Program-made: the position numbers and the translations under genes | In this document: piece by piece, positions 966-61,436 of the stretch | Layout of the letters: the number at the start of each line of letters is the position of its first letter | Numbering within the stretch: position 1 is the stretch's first letter | Source of the DNA: an uncultured bacterium | Lineage (GTDB): Bacteria; Verrucomicrobiota; Kiritimatiellia; RFP12; UBA1067 | Reading direction: 5' to 3' | Assembly: GCA_902780865.1 (NCBI GenBank) | Contig: CACZHC010000042.1 | Span: 279-64,278 of the forward strand | DNA: 64,000 bases | The notes under the pieces: generated by a model | Database searches by the model: none | What the model was told of the DNA's origin: nothing | The model's input: the letters and a program-made list of their open reading frames with translations, nothing else

Positions 966-3900
966 ATGAAAATCAAGACAATGTTGGCGATGGCGCTCGG
1001 CGCTCTGGCAGCGGGCTTTGCGGCGGCGGGAGATCTCGCGGTCTCCGCATACTGGCAGGACCACATGGTCCTCCAGCGAGGGAAGAACATCACCGTCTGG
1101 GGCAAGGACGCCCCGGGCCGCACCGTGACCGTGTCGTTCACCAACCAGACGGCTACCGCCACGACGGGCTCCGACGGATTCTGGGAGACGACGTTCGCGC
1201 AGCCGTTCGCGCTCTCGGCCACGCCGCAGGCGCTGACGATCACCGACAGCGCGAGCGAGTCCATAACGCTTTCGGACGTCCTCGTCGGCGACGTGTACCT
1301 CGCTGCCGGGCAGAGCAACATGGACCGCCGCCTGAAGGACAAGGACAAGGCCTTTGACGAGCCTCAGTCGACGACGACGGCATCCGCTTCCTCCGCATTG
1401 CGCGCAGCGCAGAGGACGCGACGGAGGAGAAGCTCTTCGACTTGCCCCCCATCAAGCCCGTCAACGACACGATCAAGTACTACGGCGAAGGATTCGACTG
1501 GGCTCCGGCGACGATGGGCGGGGCGGCAAGCAACAAGTACCACGTCAGCAGCGTCGCGCTCAACTTCGCCCACTACATCCGCAGGGCGAACGAGGAGAAG
1601 GGGCAGAACATCCCGATCGGCATCATCCATGCCTCGTCCGGCGGAACGTTCATCCGCGAGTGGATCGCCCCGTCGGTCCTCAACGATAACGGCATCTATT
1701 CCCCAGGCTCTGCGTCTTCCTCGGACGGCTGGTTCTGGAACAACATGATGGCCCCGATCCTCCGCGCGAAGATATGCGCCGTTCTTTGGTACCAGGGCTG
1801 CTCTGATTCCAGGCCGGATTGTGTGCCAGTATACAAGACGATGATGGATATCCTCGTGAGGGATCGCCGTGAGCGCTGGGGGGAGAACGGCGATTTGCCG
1901 TTCTATGCCGTGCAGATCGGCGCGCCCAACTACAATTCGGCCTCCGGCACGATTGGCCTTGATCAGTATCCGGCGCCGACCGAGGTCATAGCCGGAGAGA
2001 ACTACGCCACCATCCGCGAATGCCAGCGGCTCTGGAACATGACCGACACGGGCAGGCACGGCCTCGTCACCATCGTCGACTGCGTCGACTGCCTGAGCAA
2101 CGGGGCCCTTCATCCGGCCGACAAGAACTTCGTCGGGCGTCGCCTCTCTCTCCTCGCGCGCAGGGACATCTACGGCGAGACGGACCTTCCGGCGGAAGGG
2201 CCGACCTACACCCGTGCCGTGAGGGAGTTCGACGGGTCCGTCCGGATCTTCTTCAAGCCGGGCACGGCTAAGGGACTTACGGCGGGCCGCATGAAGCCGG
2301 CTACGGACATCACGGTGAGCCGTTGGATCAAGAAGGACACCGACCCGATCCGCGGCTTTGCGGTCTGCGGCGGCGACAGCGTCTGGAAGGACGCGGTCGC
2401 GACAGTCGACGGCGAAACAATCGTCCTGCGCGCGGACGGCGTCGCAACCCCGACGAAGTTCCACTACGGCTACTGGTGCGTTACCCGCGAGACCCTGCAG
2501 GAGGACGGCCAGCGCCTGAACCTCTACAACGACGCCGGGCTCCCGATGTCGCCCGTCGCGCCGCAGATGGTCGAGGACGCGGCAGCGTCGACGAAAGTAG
2601 TGGAACCCGTGATTGTGCCTGGCTCTTGCTTCTTCTCGCCGTCGACCAACGTGACGATCACCTGCGCGACTTCCGGCGCGACGATCCGCTACACGCTCGA
2701 CGGCAGCGAGCCGACCGCGTCGAGCACGGCCTACTCGGCGCCGATCCCGCTCACCGCGACGACGACGGTCAAGGCCCGCGCCTTCGCCGCGAACAAGGAT
2801 CCGAGCGACGTCGTCTTCGCGACATACACGCTTGGCGAGCCTCCGGCGGTGACGGCCGATCCTCAGTGGACCGTATCCTCCTACGACCCGTCCTTGTGGT
2901 CGAAGCTCTCTGGCAACATTCTCGCGGGGAAGACCGGCACGATTTCGGGCAGCGTCGCCTTCACGAGCAGCGGATACAACAACAATCCGGACAACCTGAC
3001 CGACGGTTCAGTGCCGTCCACGCCGGACAACTCCGCCTACGTCGGCTTCCAGGAGAACTCGTCCATCTACTGGACGTTCGACGAACCGCAGACGATCGAG
3101 GCGATCCGCTTCACGACGCAGCGGACCGCCGGTACTGACAGTGATGTGTCGAGGGCCTACGGCGGGCTCCACATCGAGGACGTCTACGTCCGGACGAGCG
3201 GCTCGTCGGAATGGGAGCCGCTGGGCACGCCGATCTACCAGAAGGGCGGGACGGTCGGCGGTTTCATGCTGGCTACCCTCGCGGATGACGGCGTCGGGAT
3301 TCTGGCCCAGAACGTCGTCGCCCTGAAGGTCGTATTCCTCCGGAGCGAATACTTCTGGTTCAACGTCGCGGAAGTTGAGGCGACCGGCTACGATTCGTCG
3401 GGCGGAACCGTCGGACCGGTCGATCCGATAACGCCTGTCGCGGGTTCGCTTGTCGTCGATACGACGATTTCCGACCACTGCGTCCTGCAGCGTGGAACGA
3501 ACAACTGCGTGAAGGGCACTGCGACCGTCGGCTCTACAGTCACGGTGACCTTCGGCGGAGTCTCGGCGTCGGCCGTCGCGGGGTCCGACGGAAGCTTCTC
3601 CGTCTCCATCAATCCCGGCGCCGCGAACGCCACGGGACGCGACCTCGTCGTCTCCGACACCGTCAACACGGTCACGATCACCGACGTCGTCGTGGGTGAC
3701 GTGTGGTACATTTCGGGACAGTCCAACGTCCGCTACACCGTCGATGCACTGGCGAAGTCCAAGGCTCTCGCGGACTGCGACTATCCGAGCCTCCGCATGA
3801 TGATGCTTCCGTCCGCGAACCCGGGACTCATCTCGGCGTCCGATGCGGAACTTCCCTGCGCATGGTCCGTCTGCTCGGCGACGACATGCACTAACATGTC

Positions 3901-10325: not shown

Positions 10326-13172
10326 ATGGCGGGTGACACTATGAAACGCAGAGCTCTTGTTCTTTCACTTCTGGTTGTCGTGTCGGCCGTTCCGACGCTG
10401 GCCGGCGTGACCTGGTGGTCTGTGCCGGCGATGAGCGGCGTCCAACGTCTGCCGGATGCAATTCCCGCCGATGGCGAGCAGGGAGGGACAGTCAGAATTG
10501 TCGCCGCCCACGATGAATACGAGCCTGGCTCGTTTGTTGTTCGCTCCGACACCGACCTCGGCAAGGTGCAGCCTGTCGTGGAAAAGCTTGTGAACGAGAA
10601 TGGAAACGTCTTCCCCGCCAACGCGCTTGACCTCGTCGTCGTCAAGGTCTGGTATCAGAACAAGAACGGATGGTTCAGCTATTTCGCCGACACGGGCATG
10701 AAGCTCTGCCCCGAACTCCTTCTCCACGACGAGGACCTCATTCGCGTCGACACGGCGAAAGAGGCGAACTACGCGCGGATCACGAGCGCGGACGGCAAGA
10801 TTGCGGAGTGGTGGCTAAACCCGCTTTTCAAGGAGAAGAAGCCGTTCCCCTCGATGCGCCCCGGCTTTGCGGACGCGAAGTCGATACGCCCCGTCGCGCT
10901 CGAGAAGAACGTCAGCAAGCAGTTCATCCTCACCGCGCATGTCACGCCTGACATCCCCGCCGGCCTGTACCGCGGCAAGATATCGTTCTCGACATTCTCT
11001 GTCCCCGTCGCAATCAAGGTCCTTGATTTCGGCTTGCCGAAGCCGATGGCATACATCCATCCCGAGATGGACTTCCGCATCTGCTCCTACGATTATATCG
11101 GAAAGAGTCATATCCTGGAGTTGAACGGCGGCGACGAGAATTTGATGTGGAAGCAGATGGAGGCGATTCTCGCGAATTTCGTCGCGCACGGACAGGACAT
11201 GAAGTGGGTCAGGTGCAAGACTGGTTCGGAGGAGGCCGAGCGTACGATTGAGCTGATGAAAAAAGTCGGCATGCGGACGGACGTCATTGTCGGCCCTGTA
11301 GACTACAAGTGGCAGGAACGCGATGCCAAGGCCGCACGCGAACGCGCAGACAGCATCGTCGCCTACTATGACAAGAAGTACGGACACCACAACGTTTACT
11401 GCGGATACGGCGACGAACCAGGGGTGAGGTTCTTCCCGGAGAACCGTCCAGTCTTCGACGCATATCAGGCCGCGGGGCTCAAGTTCATCATCGCCTCGCA
11501 CGGGCACATTTTCGATCAGGCGGGATACCGCTGGAACTGGCACAACGCCGCGCAGAATCCGGCGGACGCGTCCAGTCCGTCCGTTTGGAACCAGATGGGG
11601 ACGAACACCTACTGCGCATGGTATGCCAATCAGCATGTCGGCGCGGAGGATCCCGAGCTCAACCGCCGTCAGAACGGACTCGCTGCCTACCTGAGCGGCT
11701 ATTCCGCGCTTTGCAACTACGCCCACCACCTGGGACCGTACAACGATGTTTCCGAAACCTACAAGCCGATGGTCTTCGTGTATGGAACTGCGGATGGTGT
11801 CATCGACACGCTTCAGTGGAAGGGTTTCCGCGAGGGCGTCGACGACATCCGCTATGCGACGCTGATGACGGCGCTTGCGCGTGAGGCGGAGATGTCAGCC
11901 GACATCGAGGTGCGCTATCTCGCGGGCAAGGCAAAGCTTCTTCTTGCGCGGTTTGACAAGAAGACTGGCGACCTCAACGCGGCACGCGGCGAAATGATCG
12001 GCTTTATTGAGCATCTCCGCGCGGCGCTTGGCAAGGGAAAGAATAAAGTTGGGAGTTATGAGTTGGGAGTGGGTGAGTCAAACAATCTTAATTCAAAATC
12101 CCAGGTATACAAAACGCCTTTGCCGTCTGACATTTCGTGGGTTCAGGAGGGCCCGAGCGAAGGAGAGGCCGCGCCGAAGGGGTTGCCCGACAAGACATAT
12201 ACTGTCCGTATGAGCCCCGTGCGCATTCTTGGTCTCGGCAGCTGGGATGCGGCCGCGAAAGTTGTGAAACCTGGGACGGAGAAACTTGATCGCGGCTACG
12301 GCGGCGATGCCTCGTGTCTTTGGACGGATGTTGCGACCCAGCGCGGGGCGGTTGGCGCCGATGCTGAGAAACGCTACGCACGCGCACCCGAGTGGCAGGC
12401 GATGGCGGACGAGTGGGGGCTTCATTTCCGGCTTGAGGTCTTTGACGAGAAGGCCGCGGAAATCGCGCAGGGTTTTGGCTCGGTGGGGTCGCTCGAGGCA
12501 TATCTCGCGCCTGGAGCAAACACGCCATACTATGCGTTCATTCACTCTTTCGAGACTGGCGGCATGACCGTCTACAATCCCGTCTACAGCCAGCCGGATC
12601 ACCGCGAGATCGACGAAAAGGACCGTGCGAACTGCCGCGAGGAAGTCATGTGCACCGACAAGTCGGTCGTGCTTTACTTCGCGGTATCCTGGAAGTCCTA
12701 CGCGACGCGCATCCCTACGGCGAAGTCGGTTTGGGATTTCGAGCCGATGTTCTGGGGCCGCAAGGGGAACTGCTCGTGGAATGGACTCAAGACGATTCAC
12801 GGTCGTTCGTCGTGGGGTCATCTGGGCTTTGCGCTGACGGACGCCGAACGTCGCCTGATTTTGCGTTCCGTTATCGTCGCGGCGCGCAAGGCGTATGAGG
12901 CCGAAAAACGCCCGACGGGAGCATGCGGACGCTGGCAGAACGCCGAGGTCGGCGATCCCGCGTTCTACGAAAGCGAGCTGAAGCCGGTCGTGGAGAAGCT
13001 GGATGCGGCGGCAGCGCGGGTTTCGGCGGATATGGACGACGAGACTGTCGACGAACTCGCGAAGACCGCGCTTCCTGCATGGCACAACTTCAAGTTCGAA
13101 GTGCAGCGCCTGCGTGCCGATTACCTGCTGCGTAGGCAGGTGCTTGGCGAGACGAGTGCAAGAATGTTATAA
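10326..13172 (+). CDS. large secreted protein, N part DUF4091/GH123-like (tentative), C part CBM9-like (tentative)
   Basis: 948-aa ORF. ATG at 10326 abuts the previous TAA; alternative ATG at 10341 precedes signal peptide MKRRALVLSLLVVVSAVPTLAG. Family assignment from memory only. Confidence 0.6.
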   Translation: MAGDTMKRRALVLSLLVVVSAVPTLAGVTWWSVPAMSGVQRLPDAIPADGEQGGTVRIVAAHDEYEPGSFVVRSDTDLGKVQPVVEKLVNENGNVFPANALDLVVVKVWYQNKNGWFSYFADTGMKLCPELLLHDEDLIRVDTAKEANYARITSADGKIAEWWLNPLFKEKKPFPSMRPGFADAKSIRPVALEKNVSKQFILTAHVTPDIPAGLYRGKISFSTFSVPVAIKVLDFGLPKPMAYIHPEMDFRICSYDYIGKSHILELNGGDENLMWKQMEAILANFVAHGQDMKWVRCKTGSEEAERTIELMKKVGMRTDVIVGPVDYKWQERDAKAARERADSIVAYYDKKYGHHNVYCGYGDEPGVRFFPENRPVFDAYQAAGLKFIIASHGHIFDQAGYRWNWHNAAQNPADASSPSVWNQMGTNTYCAWYANQHVGAEDPELNRRQNGLAAYLSGYSALCNYAHHLGPYNDVSETYKPMVFVYGTADGVIDTLQWKGFREGVDDIRYATLMTALAREAEMSADIEVRYLAGKAKLLLARFDKKTGDLNAARGEMIGFIEHLRAALGKGKNKVGSYELGVGESNNLNSKSQVYKTPLPSDISWVQEGPSEGEAAPKGLPDKTYTVRMSPVRILGLGSWDAAAKVVKPGTEKLDRGYGGDASCLWTDVATQRGAVGADAEKRYARAPEWQAMADEWGLHFRLEVFDEKAAEIAQGFGSVGSLEAYLAPGANTPYYAFIHSFETGGMTVYNPVYSQPDHREIDEKDRANCREEVMCTDKSVVLYFAVSWKSYATRIPTAKSVWDFEPMFWGRKGNCSWNGLKTIHGRSSWGHLGFALTDAERRLILRSVIVAARKAYEAEKRPTGACGRWQNAEVGDPAFYESELKPVVEKLDAAAARVSADMDDETVDELAKTALPAWHNFKFEVQRLRADYLLRRQVLGETSARML

Positions 13173-13194
13173 CACAACCTTAACAGGAGTTAAA

Positions 13195-14238
13195 ATGAAA
13201 GACGTCAGGATTGGTCTTATAGGATTCGGTTTCATGGGAACGACGCACTGGGGCGTCTACAAGGGCGTCAAGGGCGCGAAGGTAGTTGCGCTTGCCGACG
13301 TCGATCCGGCGAAGCGCAAGGGCGACATCTCCAAGGTCGTCGGCAACATCGGCGGAGGCGACAACTCTAAGCCGGTCGACCTCTCTGGCGTCAAGGTCTA
13401 CAAGGACGCGATGGACCTGATCGCCGATCCCGACGTCGACGTCGTCGACATCTGCGTCCCGACGGCGATGCACATGGCGTATGCCCTGGCGGCGCTGAAG
13501 GCGGGCAAGCACGTCTTCAGCGAGAAGCCGCTCTGCCGCACCGAAGCGGAACTTCGCGCCTTCGTCGCGCAGGCGAAGCGCGCCAAGGGATTCTTCAACG
13601 TTGGCCTCTGCGTCCGCGCATGGCCGGAATACCGCGCCGCCTGGGAATACTTCAAGAGCGGGAAGGCGGGGAAGATGCTCACCGCGACCTTCAAGCGTAT
13701 CTCGCCCGGCGTGGACGGCAACTCGTGGAAGAACTGGTACATGGACGACAAGATGTCCGGCGGCGCGCTTCTCGATTTGCATGTGCACGACACTGACGAG
13801 GTCAACTACTTCTTCGGCAAGCCCAAGGCCGTCCGCTCGGTCGGTTCGAGTGTAGTCTCGAAGAACGGCGGAATCGACCATGTCGTGACGACGTACGACT
13901 TCGGCGACGGGCGGCTCGTCATGGCCGAGGGCGGCTGGGAGCAGGCGAAGGGCGCGACCTTCGAGATGAGCTTCACCATCGTCTGCGAGAAGGCGACCTT
14001 GAAGCTCGACTCGACCGGCTTCAACGTCTTCCTCAAGAACGGAAAGAAAGTGACGCCGAAGCTCGACGTCAAGAACGGTCCAACCGGCTGGCACCAGGAG
14101 CTTGCGTATTTCGTCGGCTGTGTCCGCAAAGGTATCAGGCCTACGAAGTACCAGACGATCGACTCGATTGCCGACACCATGAAGATCATCTTTGCCGAGG
14201 AGAAGTCCGCAAAGTCCCGCAAGACGATGAAGATTTAA
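13195..14238 (+). CDS. Gfo/Idh/MocA family oxidoreductase
   Basis: SD caggag plus ATG at 13195. N-terminal Rossmann motif MKDVRIGLIGFGFMG. The upstream part of ORF 13003 is Arg-rich read-through. Confidence 0.9.
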   Translation: MKDVRIGLIGFGFMGTTHWGVYKGVKGAKVVALADVDPAKRKGDISKVVGNIGGGDNSKPVDLSGVKVYKDAMDLIADPDVDVVDICVPTAMHMAYALAALKAGKHVFSEKPLCRTEAELRAFVAQAKRAKGFFNVGLCVRAWPEYRAAWEYFKSGKAGKMLTATFKRISPGVDGNSWKNWYMDDKMSGGALLDLHVHDTDEVNYFFGKPKAVRSVGSSVVSKNGGIDHVVTTYDFGDGRLVMAEGGWEQAKGATFEMSFTIVCEKATLKLDSTGFNVFLKNGKKVTPKLDVKNGPTGWHQELAYFVGCVRKGIRPTKYQTIDSIADTMKIIFAEEKSAKSRKTMKI

Positions 14239-14261
14239 CCTCAATTCTCCAACTCCAACTT

Positions 14262-14267
14262 TATACT
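14262..14267 (+). promoter_or_regulatory. -10 box TATACT, 9 nt before the ATG at 14277
   Basis: Lies in a 38-nt G-free spacer; no SD present. Confidence 0.35.
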
Positions 14268-14276
14268 CCAACTATT

Positions 14277-15143
14277 ATGTACAAAGCTCTGAACTACTGG
14301 GTTTTCGGCGGGTTTGGTCCGAACAGGACGCCGTACGAATTCATCGACTTCGCGAAGGCGCAGGGCCTCGACGGCGTCGAGCTTACGGTCGGCGACTGTC
14401 TCTCGATCGACATCGACGAGGCGGAGTGCCGCAAGATCGCCGCCTACGCAAAGGAGAAGGGCGTGGGACTTAGGACGCTCGCGAGCGGATACTACGGCGC
14501 CGAGTCGCTTGGCGCGGCGAATGAAGGCGAGCGCATTCGCGCGGTGGACTTCACGAAGAAGTATCTGCAGATTGCCGCGTGGATCGGCGCGGAGACGATT
14601 CTCGTCGTCCCTGGATCGACGCATGTGACGTGGGATCCTTCGCGTCCGGTCGTTCCCTACAAGACGGTCTGGGAAAACTCGACGAAGTCGATCAACGAAT
14701 TAATCCCGCTTGCCGAGAAGCTTGGCGTCAACATCGCTCTTGAGAACGTGTGGATGCGCTTCCTTCTCTCGCCGATGGAATGGAAGCTTTTCATCGACCA
14801 GTTCAAGAGCGATCGCATCGGCATGTATCTTGATATCGGCAACTGCCTCATCTACGCGCCGGCGCAGGACTACGTCGAGACGCTCGGCGCGAAGCGCATC
14901 AAGGCCGTTCACATCAAGAACTGGAAGGGCGGCGACTGCGGCGGCACGCTTCACGGCTTCGGAGACTCGCTGCTGTCCGGCGACGTCGACTACAAGGCCG
15001 TCTTCGCCGCGCTCAAGAAGGTCGGCTACAGCAAGACGTTCACGGCGGAGATGATTCCGTTCTCTCGACTGCCCGATCTGGTCCTTCCAGACCAGGCCCT
15101 TGCCGAGAAGACCGCGGCCGAACTAAGGGAGCTCTGCGTCTGA
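14277..15143 (+). CDS. sugar phosphate isomerase/epimerase (xylose isomerase-like TIM barrel)
   Basis: 288-aa ORF with family-typical LENV, IGMYLDIGN and VHIKN segments. Confidence 0.85.
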   Translation: MYKALNYWVFGGFGPNRTPYEFIDFAKAQGLDGVELTVGDCLSIDIDEAECRKIAAYAKEKGVGLRTLASGYYGAESLGAANEGERIRAVDFTKKYLQIAAWIGAETILVVPGSTHVTWDPSRPVVPYKTVWENSTKSINELIPLAEKLGVNIALENVWMRFLLSPMEWKLFIDQFKSDRIGMYLDIGNCLIYAPAQDYVETLGAKRIKAVHIKNWKGGDCGGTLHGFGDSLLSGDVDYKAVFAALKKVGYSKTFTAEMIPFSRLPDLVLPDQALAEKTAAELRELCV

Positions 15144-51088: not shown

Positions 51089-51967
51089 ATGAAGCTTTCA
51101 GGTACGATTACAGCCCTTATAACGCCGTTCTCTGGCGACGGCTCGGTTGACTATGGGGCGTTGCGCTCTTTGGTTGAGCGCCAGACACAGGCCGGCATCG
51201 AGGGCATCTGCTCCGTCGGCACGAGCGGAGAGTCGCCGACTCTCTCGCACGAGGAACACCACAAGGTCATCGAGAAGACGATCGAATTTGCCGCGGGGAA
51301 GTGCAAGATCATCGCCGGCACGGGCGCCAACTCCACATCCGAGGCCGTGTCTCTCACAAAGGCCGCGATAGCGGCTGGCGGCGCGGACGCATGCCTTCAG
51401 GTGACGCCATACTACAACAAGCCGAACCCAGAAGGGCTTTACCGCCACTTCATGACGGTCGCCGACCTCGGGCTTCCCGTCGTCCTCTACAACGTGCCTG
51501 GCCGCACCGGACGCGAGATACCGCTCGACGTCGTCGTGCGCCTCGCGAAGCATCCCAACATCGTCGCGATCAAGGAGGCCGCGGGCTCTGTCGAGAGGGT
51601 GAGCGCCATCAAGAATCGGCTTCCCGACTTCACCGTCCTCTCCGGCGACGATTCGCTCGCGCTCCCGATGGCCTCGGTCGGCGCGGAAGGCGTAATCTCC
51701 GTCGCGTCGAACGTCATCCCGAAGGAGATGGGCGACATGATCCGCCTCGCGCTCGCCGGCGACTTCGTTGGCGCCCGTGCGATTCACGCGAAATTCTATC
51801 CGCTCTTCCACGACCTCTTCATCGACGTAAATCCCGTCATGGTCAAGGAGGCGCTTTGGCTCATGGGCATCATTGAGCGCGCGTTCCGTCTACCTCTCTG
51901 CGAGACCGACGACGCAAAGCTCGCGCAGCTCAAGTCGACCCTGTCGGCCTTAAAGTTAATTGGCTGA
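51089..51967 (+). CDS. dapA: 4-hydroxy-tetrahydrodipicolinate synthase
   Basis: MKLSGTITALITPF..GTSGESPTLSHEEH..YNKP. The 162-codon upstream part of ORF 50603 is antisense to the flippase and Arg/Ser-rich. Confidence 0.95.
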   Translation: MKLSGTITALITPFSGDGSVDYGALRSLVERQTQAGIEGICSVGTSGESPTLSHEEHHKVIEKTIEFAAGKCKIIAGTGANSTSEAVSLTKAAIAAGGADACLQVTPYYNKPNPEGLYRHFMTVADLGLPVVLYNVPGRTGREIPLDVVVRLAKHPNIVAIKEAAGSVERVSAIKNRLPDFTVLSGDDSLALPMASVGAEGVISVASNVIPKEMGDMIRLALAGDFVGARAIHAKFYPLFHDLFIDVNPVMVKEALWLMGIIERAFRLPLCETDDAKLAQLKSTLSALKLIG

Positions 51968-52029
51968 CCCCTGACTCCTGACTCCTGACTCCTGGCCCCT
52001 AACCCCTGACTCCTGCCCCCTGACCCCTA
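51968..52029 (+). repeat. C-rich, G-poor degenerate CCTGACT heptamer array filling the dapA-ispF spacer
   Basis: cccctgactcctgactcctgactcctggcccctaacccctgactcctgccccctgaccccta. The reverse complement motif recurs inside hrpB (60106-60131, 60197-60225). Confidence 0.8.
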
Positions 52030-55417: not shown

Positions 55418-55532
55418 TTTTAACGCAGAGACGCAAAGTACGCAGAGAAAGGTGGGATTTTAACGGAGATAACTTCAAAAAAGCTATAATGCAACTCAGC
55501 GTTCTCTGCGCCTCCGCGTCTCTGCGTTAAAA
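55418..55532. repeat. 115-nt imperfect long palindrome (15-17 bp + 9 bp arms, ~52-nt loop)
   Basis: ttttaacgcagagacgc (55418-55434) pairs with gcgtctctgcgttaaaa (55516-55532). cgcagagaa (55441-55449) pairs with ttctctgcg (55502-55510). Confidence 0.7.
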
Positions 55533-58814: not shown

Positions 58815-61436
58815 ATGGCGTTCCCAGTTGAAGAGAGGATCGGCGAGATTCGCCGCGCGCTCGCGGCGAACAGGGATGTTGTCCTCACCGCGCCTCCCGG
58901 GAGCGGCAAGACTACTTGCGTGCCGCCCGCGCTTCTTGACGAGCCGTGGATTAAGGGAAAGAAAATCGTCATGCTCGAGCCGCGGCGGCTTGCCGCGCGC
59001 AATTGCGCGGCATACATTGCGCGTAGACGCGGCGAGGCGGTTGGAGGCACCGTCGGTTACCAGGTGCGGCTTGAGCGCAAGATTTCCGCGGCGACTCGGC
59101 TTGAGATCGTGACGGAAGGGCTGCTTACACAGCGGCTTCTTTCAGACCCGGAGCTTTCGGATGTCGGGCTTGTGATCTTCGATGAATTCCACGAGCGCTC
59201 GCTCCCCTGCGATACGGCGTTTGCGCTCGCGCTCGAAGTGCGGCGCGCGCTTCGGCCGGATCTTCGCATCCTTGTCATGTCCGCGACGCTCGACGCCGAT
59301 GAGGTCGCCGCGCATCTCGGAGACGCCGACATCATTCGCGCCGAGGGGCGCATGTTCCCCGTCGAGACGAACTACTTGGGCGACATGTCGATGACGGCCG
59401 CTATCTCGAAGGCGCTCAAAGAGACAGACGGCGACATTCTCTGCTTCCTTCCTGGCGAGGGAGAGATTAGGCGAGTGCAGGACACGGTAGGGACGTCTTT
59501 CCAAGACGTCCGCGGGCGCCTGGGGACAGGCGCCCCTACCAATGTCGATATAGATGTCCTACCGCTTTACGGCAGTCTCCCCAAGGAGGAGCAGGACAGG
59601 GTGTTCGAGCGCGGCGGACGGCGCAAGGTAATTCTCGCGACGTCGATCGCCGAGACTTCGGTTACGATCGAGGGTATTTCGACTGTGATCGACTCGGGGC
59701 TTATGCGCGTGCCGAGGTTTCGCCCAGCGTCCGGCATGTCGGGGCTTGTCACGCTTCCGCTGACGCAGGACCGCGCAGAACAGCGCAGAGGCCGCGCCGG
59801 GCGCGTTCGCGCAGGCGTATGCTATCGCCTCTGGAGCGAGGGGGAGCAGCAGTCGCGTCCGAAGAAGATGATGCCCGAGATTCTTGACGCCGATCTCTGT
59901 TCGCTCGTTCTGACAAGCGCGGCGTGGGGTGCGCTTGGGCGCGAGGATCTGCCGTGGATGACACCGCCACCTGCGTCGAACTGGGATCAGGCGGTAGGGC
60001 TTCTTAAGATGCTTGGTGCGCTTGACGGCGATGGGCGTCTCACGAAGAAGGGTGAGGCGATGGCGAAGCTCCCGATGCATCCGAGGTTGGCGAATATGAT
60101 TATATGGGTCAGGGGTCAGGAGTCAGGAGTCGTAACCGCCCCTTGCGGGTGGGCGCGACCCTTGGGGAAGCGACCGAGCCGAGCGGAGCGAGTGCCGAGG
60201 AGTCAGGAGGTAGGAGTCAGGGGGGATGTGGCTTCGCTGCTGGCGGCGATTGTAGAAGAGGGGAACAGAAGCCGCGAGACGGACATCAGGAAGATTGCCG
60301 AGGAGATAAGAGAGACGCCGAACAGACCGTTTTCGAAAAGGGTGCTGCAGTTGGCGCGGAAGTTTAAAAAAGGGTCAGACCCCTCTGACACAGTAGCTGA
60401 TACAGCTAAAGCTGCAATCAGCTACTGCAGTCAGAAAGGTCTGACCCTAGAAGGCTCTCTTCTTGCGCTTGCGTATCCTGACAGGGTTGCGAAGAACCGA
60501 GGGAATGGAACATTCCGCATGGTGTCTGGGCGCGGCGCATTTGTCGACGAAACCGATCCTCTCGCGAAGTCGCCGTACCTCGTCTGCTGTGAACTCGATG
60601 ATCGCCCGGGCGATGCGAAGGTCTTTCTTGGCTGTCCCATTGGCGAGGACGAGATCGAAGACCTTTTCGGCGATCGCATTGTCGAGGAACCGTACTGCGC
60701 ATGGGACAGGCAGAACGACCGCGTGAAGAGCGTCGTTCGCCGCAAGCTTGGGGAGATGACTCTTGGGGAGAAGCCGCTCGTTGCTTCGTCGCACAACGCG
60801 CATCTTCAGGACGGCGTCGATGCAGAAATTGCGACGGCGCTTCTCGAAGGCATCCGCCAGAAGGGAGTCGAGAATCTGCCCTGTTGGACGAAGGAGTCGC
60901 GCCAATTTCGCGCAAGAATGACGTTTTTATCGCGTATTAATGGGGGTGAGTGGCCTAATCCGACCGATGAGGCGATTCTTGCCGCATTGCCTGGTTTCAT
61001 CGGCGGGATGACGAAGTGGAAGGATTTGGAGCGGCTTGACCTCTTTTCGGTCTTTGACTTTATGCTCGCGGAAGCGGGGCATGATAGGCGCGAGCTCGAT
61101 CGTCTTGCGCCTACGCGCATGGAGGTTCCGAGCGGCAGCCACATGCTTATCCACTACGAGGGTGACGAGCCGACGTGTGAGGTTCGTCTTCAGGAATGTT
61201 TCGGGCTTATGGAGACGCCGAAGGTCGCTGGCGGAAAGGTGCCCGTCGTGATGACGCTTCTTTCGCCTGCACAGAGGCCGATACAGATAACGAAAGACCT
61301 TGCTGGCTTCTGGCGCGAAGGGTATCAGCTCGTCCGCAAGGATATGCGCGGACGCTATCCGAAGCACTATTGGCCGGAAGACCCGTTCACCGCCGTCGCG
61401 ACACGTCGCACCGTCAAACGTGCTGGGCAGACCTGA
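58815..61436 (+). CDS. hrpB: ATP-dependent RNA helicase HrpB (DEAH box) carrying two in-frame repeat insertions
   Basis: TAPPGSGKTT, DEFHER, SATL, TSIAETS, QRRGRAGR motifs and C-terminal RYPKHYWPEDP. Confidence 0.92.
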   Translation: MAFPVEERIGEIRRALAANRDVVLTAPPGSGKTTCVPPALLDEPWIKGKKIVMLEPRRLAARNCAAYIARRRGEAVGGTVGYQVRLERKISAATRLEIVTEGLLTQRLLSDPELSDVGLVIFDEFHERSLPCDTAFALALEVRRALRPDLRILVMSATLDADEVAAHLGDADIIRAEGRMFPVETNYLGDMSMTAAISKALKETDGDILCFLPGEGEIRRVQDTVGTSFQDVRGRLGTGAPTNVDIDVLPLYGSLPKEEQDRVFERGGRRKVILATSIAETSVTIEGISTVIDSGLMRVPRFRPASGMSGLVTLPLTQDRAEQRRGRAGRVRAGVCYRLWSEGEQQSRPKKMMPEILDADLCSLVLTSAAWGALGREDLPWMTPPPASNWDQAVGLLKMLGALDGDGRLTKKGEAMAKLPMHPRLANMIIWVRGQESGVVTAPCGWARPLGKRPSRAERVPRSQEVGVRGDVASLLAAIVEEGNRSRETDIRKIAEEIRETPNRPFSKRVLQLARKFKKGSDPSDTVADTAKAAISYCSQKGLTLEGSLLALAYPDRVAKNRGNGTFRMVSGRGAFVDETDPLAKSPYLVCCELDDRPGDAKVFLGCPIGEDEIEDLFGDRIVEEPYCAWDRQNDRVKSVVRRKLGEMTLGEKPLVASSHNAHLQDGVDAEIATALLEGIRQKGVENLPCWTKESRQFRARMTFLSRINGGEWPNPTDEAILAALPGFIGGMTKWKDLERLDLFSVFDFMLAEAGHDRRELDRLAPTRMEVPSGSHMLIHYEGDEPTCEVRLQECFGLMETPKVAGGKVPVVMTLLSPAQRPIQITKDLAGFWREGYQLVRKDMRGRYPKHYWPEDPFTAVATRRTVKRAGQT
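59491..59535. repeat. 45-nt double perfect hairpin inside hrpB (in frame, 15 codons)
   Basis: ggacgtctt tcc aagacgtcc gc gggcgcct ggggac aggcgccc. Confidence 0.75.
60104..60225. repeat. ~120-nt in-frame insertion inside hrpB, bounded by GGAGTCA heptamer arrays
   Basis: gggtcaggggtcaggagtcaggagtc ... gaggagtcaggaggtaggagtcaggggg. Encodes WVRGQESGVVTAPCGWARPLGKRPSRAERVPRSQEVGVRG between the conserved HPRLANMI and AAIVEE segments. Confidence 0.7.

What the first reader, a model, noticed from the sequence alone, without database searches (positions are those of the whole stretch)
60104..60225. ~120-nt repeat-bounded element inserted in frame in hrpB, bounded by the heptamer array that forms the dapA-ispF spacer
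A block encodes WVRGQESGVVTAPCGWARPLGKRPSRAERVPRSQEVGVRG between HPRLANMI and (D)VASLLAAIVEE. My recollection of E. coli HrpB has only about 15 residues between those segments. The block is flanked on both sides by direct GGAGTCA/GGGGTCA heptamer arrays (60106-60131 and 60197-60225). These are the reverse complement of the CCTGACT array at 51968-52029. The core carries a GC-rich interrupted hairpin (cccc..gggt..accc..gggg, ~60140-60168). This looks like a small mobile or recombinogenic element that can sit both in spacers and, in frame, in genes.
Basis: partly seen in the sequence, partly recalled or inferred. Interest (0 to 1): 0.65.

Follow-up and report, generated by a model that had tools for sequence, protein, structure and literature searches.

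The report
Small mobile repeat translated inside hrpB
The extra 36 amino acids in this rumen bacterium's HrpB helicase come from a 66-base mobile repeat that landed in a 7-base tandem repeat inside a tolerant protein loop; the same repeat sits in frame in many other housekeeping genes, a known kind of "selfish DNA in genes" in a group where it had not been described.

Summary
HrpB (58815-61436, +) carries GGRGTCA heptamers at 60105-60131 and 60198-60226, matching the reverse complement of the dapA-ispF spacer array (51964-52028).

The block is two things, not one. It is a heptamer tandem array, plus an exact 66-nt element (60132-60197, GTAACC...GTGCCG) inserted inside the array. Removing the 66 nt restores the heptamer phase.

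The 66-mer is a dispersed repeat of rumen and gut Kiritimatiellia:
- 94 distinct sites were found in public contigs.
- Its depth is roughly 10-30x that of the flanking hrpB sequence in four bovine gut metagenomes.
- Its ends are the same at almost all sites, next to a C^AG junction.
- Two clean empty/filled allele pairs show no target duplication. The ends are not inverted repeats.
- A central hairpin is supported by compensatory changes.

About a third of the sites lie in frame in real genes, in both orientations (UvrA, MnmG, GltB, AroKB, GH2, GT4 and others).

HrpB alleles 80-97% identical to the window's carry no insert, an array only, or array plus core read in two different frames. Every length sampled is a multiple of 3, so the insert is translated.

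Closest known: Rickettsia palindromic elements and intragenic REPs of Opitutus terrae. The mobilising enzyme is unknown. I call it a new variant of a known kind, of moderate interest.

The parts
58815..61436 (+). hrpB ORF (873 aa), host gene of the insertions
   Evidence: PDB 6eud E=2.8e-150. Pfam DEAD, Helicase_C, HA2_N and HrpB_C. An identical protein is encoded on two independent assemblies.
60105..60131 (+). Left part of the GGRGTCA heptamer array (3 full units plus GGAGTC), translated as WVRGQESGV
   Evidence: L007 and contigs in runs X2 and X4 carry exactly 3 fewer units (21 nt) here.
60132..60197 (+). 66-nt dispersed element GTAACCGCCCCTTGCGGGTGGGCGCGACCCTTGGGGAAGCGACCGAGCCGAGCGGAGCGAGTGCCG, read here as (V)VTAPCGWARPLGKRPSRAERVP
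   Evidence: Covariance-model hit at 97.6 bits, exactly these coordinates. 94 distinct sites, almost all with the same ends. Empty/filled allele pairs show an exact 66-nt insertion. Depth roughly 10-30x that of the flanks.
60151..60175 (+). Central hairpin of the element (positions 20-44 of the 66-mer)
   Evidence: 5 of 10 pairs show changes on both sides among subfamilies. 0 of 500 shuffles reach the observed values, and slid controls give 0-3 pairs. Subfamily stems are GTTTGCG/CGCAAAC, GTTCGC/GCGAAC, GCGGC/GCCGC and GGCTCGC/GCGAGCC.
60198..60226 (+). Right part of the heptamer array (A, then GGAGTCA GGAGGTA GGAGTCA GGGGGGA). It continues the left part in phase once the 66 nt are removed.
   Evidence: A 66-nt excision gives the best cross-junction heptamer match.
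51964..52028 (-). The same heptamer family (CCTGACT/CCCTGAC as read on the + strand) filling the whole dapA-ispF spacer, with no 66-nt core. It supplies dapA's TGA stop and ends at ispF's ATG.
   Evidence: The spacer is 2 units (14 nt) longer in relative L007, where the dapA reading frame would extend into the array.
59487..59543 (+). Element Y: two GTAG-tagged hairpins in opposite orientation (a REP doublet), in frame in hrpB (VGTSFQDVRGRLGTGAPTN). In relatives, the loop of its first hairpin is the target of a 66-mer subfamily.
   Evidence: The extra residues relative to E. coli HrpB are visible.
60369..60448 (+). Element Z: an 80-nt near-perfect palindrome, in frame in hrpB (KGSDPSDTVADTAKAAISYCSQKGLTL). 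It occupies a second hypervariable loop.
   Evidence: Self inverted match. Duplicated in P0002/L007 and replaced by other repeats in other alleles. Depth peaks at 3-21x that of the flanks in metagenomes.

Best explanation
The block is a nested insertion of two kinds of repetitive DNA in a surface loop of HrpB that tolerates almost any sequence.

First component: a tandem array of the heptamer GGRGTCA. Seven is coprime to three, so the array encodes the same cyclic peptide GVRSQES in all three sense frames and has no stop codon. Its reverse strand has TGA in every frame.

Second component: a 66-nt (22-codon) non-autonomous mobile element, inserted precisely between GGAGTC and A of one heptamer. 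It has a GTAA-tagged 5' end, a conserved central hairpin and a conserved 3' tail.

The element spreads through rumen and gut Kiritimatiellia genomes by a sequence-specific cut-and-join reaction. That reaction places it immediately 5' of AG (C^AG), with no target duplication and no inverted ends. Most often it lands in other repeats: heptamer arrays, REP hairpin loops and arms of palindromic elements.

Insertions survive in genes when they fall in loops or linkers and the frame that is read has no stop. They are then simply translated.

Most likely enzyme (inferred, not shown): a trans-acting single-strand-DNA HUH/Y1 transposase of the RAYT or IS200/IS605 type.

The insert probably gives HrpB no function. 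It is tolerated junk that makes the loop hypervariable between strains.
For: SHOWN
- Dispersal. 14 genome loci and 92 metagenome stretches give 94 distinct sites. Core depth is roughly 10-30x that of the flanks in four metagenomes.
- Fixed ends. GTAACC starts 85 of 94 copies and GTGCCG ends 84 of 94. The flank is C at -1 in 89 of 94, and AG at +1/+2 in 92-93 of 94.
- Insertion chemistry. Two empty/filled allele pairs show exactly 66 nt with offset 0 and no duplication. The two ends are not complementary.
- Array phase. A 66-nt excision gives the best heptamer phase (358 matches, against 311 and 269 at shifts of +1 and -1).
- Youth or constraint. The core is 65/66 identical between window, L003 and L007, while the hrpB DNA upstream of the insert is about 81% identical.
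- Hairpin. Compensatory changes support it.
- Intragenic copies. About 30 sites lie in ORFs open for at least 95 codons on both sides. Pfam confirms real proteins for 10 of them. HydF is a further host.
- Translation. All five sampled HrpB loop lengths are multiples of 3 (75, 147, 162, 168 and 183 nt). The core is read in two frames through compensating indels. A copy read in the third frame has TAA changed to TAT.
- Patchy distribution of the loop states across the HrpB tree.

INFERRED
- The HUH/Y1 mechanism. It rests on the absence of duplication and inverted ends, the hairpin, insertion into a hairpin loop, and CT^ on the complementary strand at one junction. E. coli RAYT cuts at CT dinucleotides, directed by GTAG (PMC3479197).
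- GTAG-tagged REPs exist in the same gene (element Y), so a RAYT may be present in these genomes.
Against: - No transposase was found. A RAYT motif scan and a tblastn with a validated RAYT sequence both came up empty in 820 kb of held loci.
- The 5' tag is GTAA, not GTAG.
- Only one junction has CT.
- The single-sequence fold is not significant.
- The covariation alignment was fitted to the model, so it leans towards the structure.
- Being open in 5 of 6 frames is expected for this base composition (P=0.47). A length divisible by 3 has a one-in-three chance. There is therefore no proof that the element is adapted to coding regions.
- Translation is inferred from frame conservation. RNA runs did not cover the hrpB flanks, and no proteomics was available.
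- High similarity between copies could also come from gene conversion.
- The structure model is poor (mean pLDDT 56.7), so placing the insert in a surface loop rests mainly on alignment gaps.
Confidence: 0.78

Rival explanations
1. This is local simple-repeat instability only. The heptamers expanded in place by slipped-strand mispairing, and the sequence between them is a unique local stretch with no mobility.
For: Heptamer copy number does vary by slippage-like steps: a 21-nt allele, 2 extra units (14 nt) in the L007 spacer, and array-only HrpB alleles.
Against: The 66-nt core is present at 94 unrelated sites, almost all with the same ends. It also occurs at sites without heptamers.
Confidence: 0.03
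2. The copies are spread and kept alike by homologous recombination or gene conversion between dispersed arrays, not by a transposase.
For: - Most copies sit in arrays that offer homology on both sides.
- Mosaic cores exist (L109, L018, L047).
- Loop states are patchy across the HrpB tree.
- No transposase was found.
Against: - The junctions are the same to the nucleotide at almost all sites, in four unrelated flank types.
- In REP hairpin loops the only shared flank is C^AG or N^AG.
- The 66 nt insert exactly, and the array phase is preserved.
Confidence: 0.12
3. The block is a selected, functional protein module in HrpB and other proteins, for example a flexible linker or an interaction peptide.
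For: It is retained in frame in many housekeeping genes. Di Nocera et al. speculated that REP insertions in repair genes might modify the activity of those proteins (PMC3733652).
Against: - The same DNA is read in three sense frames and three antisense frames, giving unrelated peptides.
- Many copies are intergenic.
- Presence and absence vary among near-identical alleles.
- The insert region has pLDDT below 35 in the model, though the model as a whole is poor.
Confidence: 0.04
4. The block is an intervening sequence removed from the RNA or the protein (intron-like or intein-like). The ends do read GT...AG if the flanking AG is included.
For: The element starts with GT and is followed by AG in 92-93 of 94 copies.
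Against: - There is no Rfam match.
- 66-68 nt is far too small for a group I or group II intron, and there is no intein.
- All allele lengths are multiples of 3 with the insert retained. Removing 68 nt would shift the frame.
- The TAA to TAT change in the third-frame copy only makes sense if the copy is translated.
Confidence: 0.01
5. The element is a host cis-element, such as a protein-binding site or an RNA stabiliser or terminator like some REPs, kept by selection rather than by mobility.
For: The sequence and hairpin are strongly conserved. The core is abundant in metatranscriptome contigs. Antisense heptamer arrays lie directly upstream of start codons, as reported for TAACTGA repeats (PMC4679880).
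Against: Both orientations occur, and copies sit inside coding regions of unrelated genes. Presence and absence vary at orthologous sites. There is no T-run.
Confidence: 0.1

Closest known systems
Rickettsia palindromic elements (RPE; Ogata et al. 2000, as summarised in PMC10969869)
   Same: Both are short non-autonomous repeats inserted many times in frame into unrelated housekeeping genes, translated as extra peptide in tolerant loops, and also present between genes.
   Different: RPEs are about 100-150 bp and palindromic over their length, and they occur in Rickettsia. This element is 66 nt and asymmetric (a tagged 5' end, one well-supported hairpin and a non-palindromic tail). It lives in Kiritimatiellia, inserts with a C^AG junction, and lands largely inside other repeats. 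No sequence relationship was tested.
GTAG-tagged REPs/REPINs mobilised by RAYT, including the intragenic REPs of Opitutus terrae (PMC3733652; PMC3479197; PMC3116915)
   Same: - It is a hairpin repeat with a conserved unpaired tetranucleotide at the 5' foot.
- It is high in copy number.
- Precedents are intragenic copies in another member of the PVC superphylum (O. terrae is a verrucomicrobium), including in uvrA. A uvrA copy was found here too (L056).
- It has neither duplication nor inverted ends.
- CT lies next to one junction.
- A true GTAG REP doublet (element Y) lies in the same hrpB.
   Different: The tag is GTAA (85 of 94), not GTAG. The unit is 66 nt with a long conserved 3' tail, rather than a 20-40-nt palindrome. 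About a third of copies are intragenic. No RAYT was found in the DNA held.
IS200/IS605-derived palindrome-associated elements and their single-strand 'peel and paste' transposition
   Same: Insertion is exact, without target duplication or terminal inverted repeats, next to a short fixed target on one strand. The element depends on a hairpin, and it inserts into a hairpin loop, a likely single-stranded target.
   Different: Those elements have hairpins near both ends and a 4-5-nt target. Here the conserved flank is only 2-3 nt, and just one hairpin is well supported.
Heptamer tandem repeats of bacteria (cyanobacterial STRR, from my own knowledge; TAACTGA repeats of Beggiatoaceae, Cyanobacteria and Bacteroidetes, PMC4679880)
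   Same: These are direct tandem 7-nt units in short intergenic spacers, often ending right at a start codon, and occasionally inside ORFs. Copy number varies.
   Different: The unit sequence is GGRGTCA. Here the arrays also serve as landing sites for a second element and are common in coding loops in the sense orientation.
MITEs
   Same: Both are small, non-autonomous and dispersed, and both can fuse in frame with genes.
   Different: The defining terminal inverted repeats and target-site duplications are absent.

Membership tests
REP/REPIN (RAYT-associated) | Short imperfect hairpin repeated at high copy number | tested here: met
   Hairpin with compensatory changes. 94 sites. Depth roughly 10-30x that of the flanks.
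REP/REPIN (RAYT-associated) | Conserved GTAG tetranucleotide at the 5' foot of the hairpin | tested here: not met
   GTAACC in 85 of 94 copies and GTAGCC in 1. Element Y at 59487-59543 does carry GTAG.
REP/REPIN (RAYT-associated) | Cleavage or junction at a CT dinucleotide | tested here: inconclusive
   AG follows the element in 92-93 of 94 copies, which is CT^ on the other strand at one junction. The other junction is TTAC^G. The rule comes from PMC3479197.
REP/REPIN (RAYT-associated) | A RAYT gene in the genome, typically flanked by the repeats | tested here: inconclusive
   None was found in 820 kb of held loci, by motif scan or by tblastn with a RAYT sequence validated against 4er8. Whole genomes could not be scanned.
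REP/REPIN (RAYT-associated) | Predominantly extragenic | tested here: not met
   About 30 of 94 sites lie inside long ORFs, and 10 of these were confirmed by Pfam.
Rickettsia palindromic elements | Repeated in-frame insertion into unrelated protein-coding genes | tested here: met
Rickettsia palindromic elements | Palindromic over the whole 100-150-bp unit; sequence family of Rickettsia | tested here: not met
   The unit is 66 nt and its ends are not complementary. Only positions 20-44, and weakly 9-18, pair. Sequence similarity to RPE consensus sequences was not tested.
MITE | Terminal inverted repeats | tested here: not met
   The left end is GTAACCGCC and the right end is GAGTGCCG, with no complementarity.
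MITE | Target-site duplication | tested here: not met
   Two empty/filled pairs show offset 0 with at most 1 nt of ambiguity.
IS200/IS605-type non-autonomous element | No duplication, no inverted ends, fixed short target on one side, hairpin-dependent | tested here: inconclusive
   The first three features are met. Hairpins at both ends are not shown, and no TnpA was found.
Heptamer tandem repeat arrays (STRR / TAACTGA type) | Head-to-tail 7-nt units in spacers with variable copy number | tested here: met
   The unit sequence differs from the described families.
Intron or intein | Removal from the RNA or protein; ribozyme or Hint-domain signatures | tested here: not met
   No Rfam hit. Frame conservation holds with the insert retained. 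The element is too small.

The most novel reading that the evidence does not exclude
The 66-mer, the heptamer arrays and the other short repeats together form a nested repeat ecosystem specialised for life inside genes. In this reading the frame-neutral arrays act as safe landing pads in protein loops, a 22-codon element targets them, and an undescribed single-strand-DNA enzyme drives the system. The result would be continual generation of hypervariable surface loops in housekeeping proteins of rumen Kiritimatiellia, a bacterial counterpart of transposon exonisation on a scale so far seen only in Rickettsia.
Probability: 0.25. Interest if true: 0.7.

Novelty: new variant of a known kind. Interest (0 to 1): 0.5.

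Why it matters
**Second large case of the phenomenon.** In-frame selfish DNA in essential genes is best known from Rickettsia, with scattered intragenic REPs elsewhere. This is a second large, apparently young case, in free-living, uncultured gut bacteria. It comes with unusually clean evidence: exact empty and filled alleles, the same DNA read in different frames, and nested insertions.

**Practical effects.**
- Protein lengths differ by up to about 130 residues among the HrpB homologues compared (792-928 aa).
- Assemblies break at these repeats.
- Alignments and gene trees show false "hypervariable regions".
- Gene callers will produce spurious peptides.

**A defined substrate.** The element gives a concrete target for finding a new target-specific single-strand transposase: a 66-nt unit with a C^AG junction.

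Tried and rejected
- **Single-sequence folding.** RNA and DNA folds of the 131-nt block and of the 66-mer are no better than shuffles.
- **Rfam at E<=1.** Nothing at the locus.
- **Viral contigs and plasmids.** No copy of the core, so nothing points to a phage or plasmid origin.
- **Other copies of the core in the 64-kb window.** None.
- **"Designed to be stop-free".** Rejected. Being open in 5 of 6 frames has P=0.47 for this composition.
- **RAYT search.** The motif scan and the tblastn in held loci were negative. This is inconclusive, because whole genomes could not be scanned.
- **RNA evidence for the hrpB transcript.** Metatranscriptome contigs contain the repeats but not the unique hrpB flanks, so they are uninformative on translation.
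- **AlphaFold model from 42 close homologues.** It is poor overall (mean pLDDT 56.7, pTM 0.35). The insert regions score lowest, but that carries little weight.
- **MITE, intron and intein readings.** Rejected on defining features.
- **Literature search for such repeats in Kiritimatiellia.** Nothing found.
Full report
**1.

Window 58815-61436 (+) is one 873-codon ORF. It is HrpB: PDB 6eud at E=2.8e-150, and Pfam DEAD, Helicase_C, HA2_N and HrpB_C.

Between HPRLANMI and ASLLAAIVEE the DNA reads as follows:
- TGGGTCA GGGGTCA GGAGTCA GGAGTC (60105-60131)
- a G+C-rich stretch (60132-60197)
- A GGAGTCA GGAGGTA GGAGTCA GGGGGGA (60198-60226)

Tandem Repeats Finder calls both period-7 arrays. It also calls the 9.3-unit array at 51964-52028, which is the reverse complement and fills the dapA-ispF spacer.

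A 14-mer made of two units, with up to 2 mismatches, hits 10 times. All hits are at these two loci, and 0.46 are expected by chance.

Against E. coli HrpB, the alignment breaks at residue 442 and resumes at 545, against chain residues 440 and 490. The window protein is therefore about 53 residues longer across a region that contains this block and a second insert.

**2. Source.**

The same HrpB protein is encoded on two independent rumen metagenome assemblies (ENA ERZ28614175, 175 kb, and ERZ27280319). Named close homologues are Kiritimatiellae or Kiritimatiellia MAGs. Runs holding the sequence are bovine and other gut metagenomes.

**3. The loop is hypervariable among near-identical alleles.**

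I compared 120 homologues (70-100% identity, lengths 792-928 aa). Among the 75 closest, which are 85-97% identical outside the two loops, the segment between NM(I/V)(I/L) and (A/S)LLAAIVEE ranges from 5 residues (GVRGD) to 51.

The DNA of five alleles shows the anatomy:
- L005 has only GGGGTTA GGGGGGA.
- L006 has a long heptamer array and nothing else.
- L007 has GGGGTC + core + A GGGGTCA GGAGTCA GGAGTCA GGGGGGA.
- The window has three more heptamers on the left.
- L003 and L004 carry the same core shifted by +1 nt on the left and +5 nt on the right. It is therefore read in another frame: RNRPLRVGATHGEATEPSGASAE instead of VVTAPCGWARPLGKRPSRAERVP.

The lengths from HPRL to VEE are 75, 147, 162, 168 and 183 nt, all multiples of three.

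The states (none, array only, core in frame 0, core in frame 2, and an unrelated SRVERVDRAEGVG repeat) are scattered over the HrpB tree.

In four bovine gut metagenomes, contigs carry an allele lacking exactly 21 nt at 60104, alongside other loop alleles.

**4. The middle part is a dispersed 66-nt element.**

- It has no second copy in the window.
- A 23-mer from it hits 14 loci in GTDB species genomes. All are gut or rumen Kiritimatiellia, or MAGs labelled Lentisphaerae, and five are on different contigs of one MAG.
- A 28-mer from its other half hits 92 metagenome stretches.
- There are none in viral contigs or plasmids.
- After removing duplicates there are 94 sites with distinct flanks and 38 sequence variants. 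The commonest variant, which is the window's, occurs at 20 sites.
- Depth over 60131-60193 is roughly 10-30 times that of the flanking hrpB sequence in all four DNA runs.
- The ends are fixed. GTAACC starts 85 of 94 copies and GTGCCG ends 84 of 94. The base before is C in 89 of 94, and the two bases after are AG in 92-93 of 94.

**5. It inserts exactly, with no duplication.**

A diverged subfamily gives two clean empty/filled pairs within hrpB itself. L115 carries it at 2682-2747, where L114, L003, L007 and the window's own allele are empty. L114 carries it at 3507-3572, where L115 is empty. Both show an exact 66 nt, an offset of 0 and at most 1 nt of ambiguity. The two ends are not complementary, so there are no terminal inverted repeats.

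Excising 66 nt from all copies gives the best continuation of the heptamer period across the junction (358 matches, against 311 and 269 for shifts of +1 and -1). In 44 of 94 sites, at least 5 of the 7 bases match. For the window this gives a perfect array...GGAGTCA GGAGTC|A GGAGTCA...

The core is therefore a separate element that landed inside an existing array. The array is not its terminal repeat.

Other copies sit in different repeats, usually the same kind on both sides:
- a GCAGAG-rich repeat
- GGGGAAC heptamers
- TTCGTGT repeats

The pairs above sit in the loop of a hairpin: GGGACGTCT^TTCCAAGACGTCC.

**6. A conserved hairpin.**

Single sequences do not fold better than shuffles. Subfamilies nevertheless keep a stem at positions 20-26 and 38-44 with different bases:
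- GGGCGCG/AGCGACC
- GTTTGCG/CGCAAAC
- GTTCGC/GCGAAC
- GCGGC/GCCGC
- GGCTCGC/GCGAGCC

I built a covariance model from 15 variants and aligned its 88 matches. Five of 10 pairs change on both sides, 0 of 500 shuffles reach the observed values, and slid controls give 0-3 pairs. The caveat is that the alignment was fitted to the model.

A small 5' hairpin (CCC-TTGN-GGG) has one compensatory example (L005:977).

**7. It sits in many genes and is read through.**

About 30 distinct sites lie in frames that are open for at least 95 codons on both sides.

Pfam confirms ten host proteins:
- an AroK-AroB fusion
- GH2 beta-galactosidase
- GT4 glycosyltransferase
- UvrA
- MnmG
- the glutamate synthase amidotransferase domain
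- an AP_endonuc_2 (xylose isomerase-like TIM barrel) protein
- GH29 fucosidase
- an MFS transporter
- an AMP-binding enzyme that carries two tandem copies

HydF is another host.

Both orientations occur, and all six frames are used across sites. The one frame with a stop codon (TAA within GTAACC) is used in L014:239, and in that copy the codon is TAT.

Being open in 5 of 6 frames is not unusual for this base composition (P=0.47), so I do not claim adaptation to coding.

Translation is an inference. It rests on the multiples of three, the compensated frameshifts and the TAA-to-TAT change. RNA runs contain the repeat at high depth but not the unique hrpB flanks.

**8. The heptamer array.**

GGAGTCA repeated gives GVRSQES in every sense frame with no stop. 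The reverse strand has TGA in every frame. This explains why the arrays lie in the sense direction inside genes and in the antisense direction in the dapA-ispF spacer. In that spacer the array provides dapA's stop codon and ends at ispF's ATG.

The spacer is 14 nt (2 units) longer in L007, where the dapA reading frame would run on into the array.

In frame, copy number changes in steps of three units.

**9. Age.**

The core is 65/66 identical between window, L003 and L007. The hrpB DNA upstream of the insert is about 81% identical, and the whole gene 86%. The copies are therefore much younger than the alleles, or they are homogenised, or they are constrained.

**10. Mechanism.**

Shown:
- a dispersed unit with fixed ends
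- exact insertion next to C^AG
- no duplication and no inverted ends
- a hairpin
- nesting in other repeats
- survival in frame

Inferred: mobilisation in trans by a single-strand-DNA HUH/Y1 enzyme. E. coli RAYT needs a GTAG at the 5' foot of a REP hairpin and cuts at CT dinucleotides (PMC3479197). Here the tag is GTAA, and CT^ lies on the complementary strand at one junction.

A true GTAG-tagged REP doublet (element Y, 59487-59543) lies in the same gene.

No RAYT-like gene was found in the 820 kb held, and whole genomes could not be scanned.

Gene conversion between arrays is the main rival for how copies spread. The identical junctions in four unrelated flank types argue against it being the only process.

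**11. Comparison with what is known.**

- In-frame spread of a small repeat through unrelated genes is the hallmark of Rickettsia palindromic elements (PMC10969869).
- Intragenic GTAG and CGTC REPs, most numerous in the verrucomicrobium Opitutus terrae and including its uvrA genes, were catalogued by Di Nocera et al. (PMC3733652).
- Heptamer arrays next to start codons are known for TAACTGA (PMC4679880).
- I found no description for Kiritimatiellia.
- The element fails strict membership of REP (GTAA tag, 66 nt, a third of copies intragenic), of RPE (not palindromic) and of MITE (no inverted ends, no duplication).

I file it as a new variant of the known kind "small non-autonomous repeats tolerated in frame in genes".

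**12. Structure.**

An AlphaFold model built from 42 close homologues is poor overall (mean pLDDT 56.7). Residues 418-470, 231-243 and 521-544, which cover the three inserts, are among its segments with pLDDT below 50, and 427-471 have no secondary structure. This is consistent with surface loops but is weak evidence.

Noticed in passing
window 59487-59543 (+): A GTAG-tagged REP doublet (GTAGGGACGTCT-TTCCA-AGACGTCC, followed by the reverse complement of GTAGGGGCGCC-TGTCCCCA-GGCGCCC) lies in frame in hrpB as VGTSFQDVRGRLGTGAPTN. E. coli HrpB has no counterpart there. In relatives the loop of its first hairpin is where a 66-mer subfamily inserts. A similar unit occupies the second loop in L114 and L115.
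   Followed up: partly
window 60369-60448 (+): An 80-nt near-perfect palindrome (GGGTCAGACC...CAGTAGCTGAT...ATCAGCTACTG...GGTCTGACCC) lies in frame in a second hypervariable HrpB loop. It is duplicated in tandem in P0002/L007, and a third copy lies elsewhere in L007's hrpB. In other alleles it is replaced by at least four other repeat-derived segments. Its depth peaks at 3-21x that of the flanks in metagenomes.
   Followed up: partly
window 55418-55532: An intergenic long inverted repeat: TTTTAACGCAGAGACGCAAAGTACGCAGAG ... CTCTGCGCCTCCGCGTCTCTGCGTTAAAA. It gave sub-threshold hits to microRNA precursor models (mir-999, 35.9 bits). Its arms are the same GCAGAG-rich repeat that flanks the second-largest subfamily of the 66-mer elsewhere.
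   Followed up: partly
window 12041-12075 (+), inside ORF 10326-13172: A short array of a related heptamer (GAGTTGG/GAGTTAT) lies within a 948-codon ORF. It may be another in-frame array. The same GGAGTTG family flanks many core copies in other loci.
   Followed up: no
window 14240-14279: An antisense heptamer array (CTCCAAC units) fills the short spacer between ORFs 13003-14238 and 14277-15143 and ends at the ATG. This is the same layout as the dapA-ispF spacer, with no room for a Shine-Dalgarno sequence.
   Followed up: no
L107:2827-2979; L014; L062; L003:8330-8395; L115:402-467: - L107 has two cores in tandem, separated by three heptamers, in the linker of an AMP-binding enzyme.
- L014, a 5.4-kb contig binned as Ruminococcus (probably misbinned), has three copies.
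- L062 has two copies, one of them inside MnmG.
- L003 and L115 have a copy inside HydF.
   Followed up: partly
L062:1743-1808, L062:3003-3068, L080:4366-4431: A variant of the element has a different 5' end (GGGGGATATCC instead of GTAACCGCCCC) but the same hairpin and tail. This suggests modular or recombinant 5' ends.
   Followed up: no
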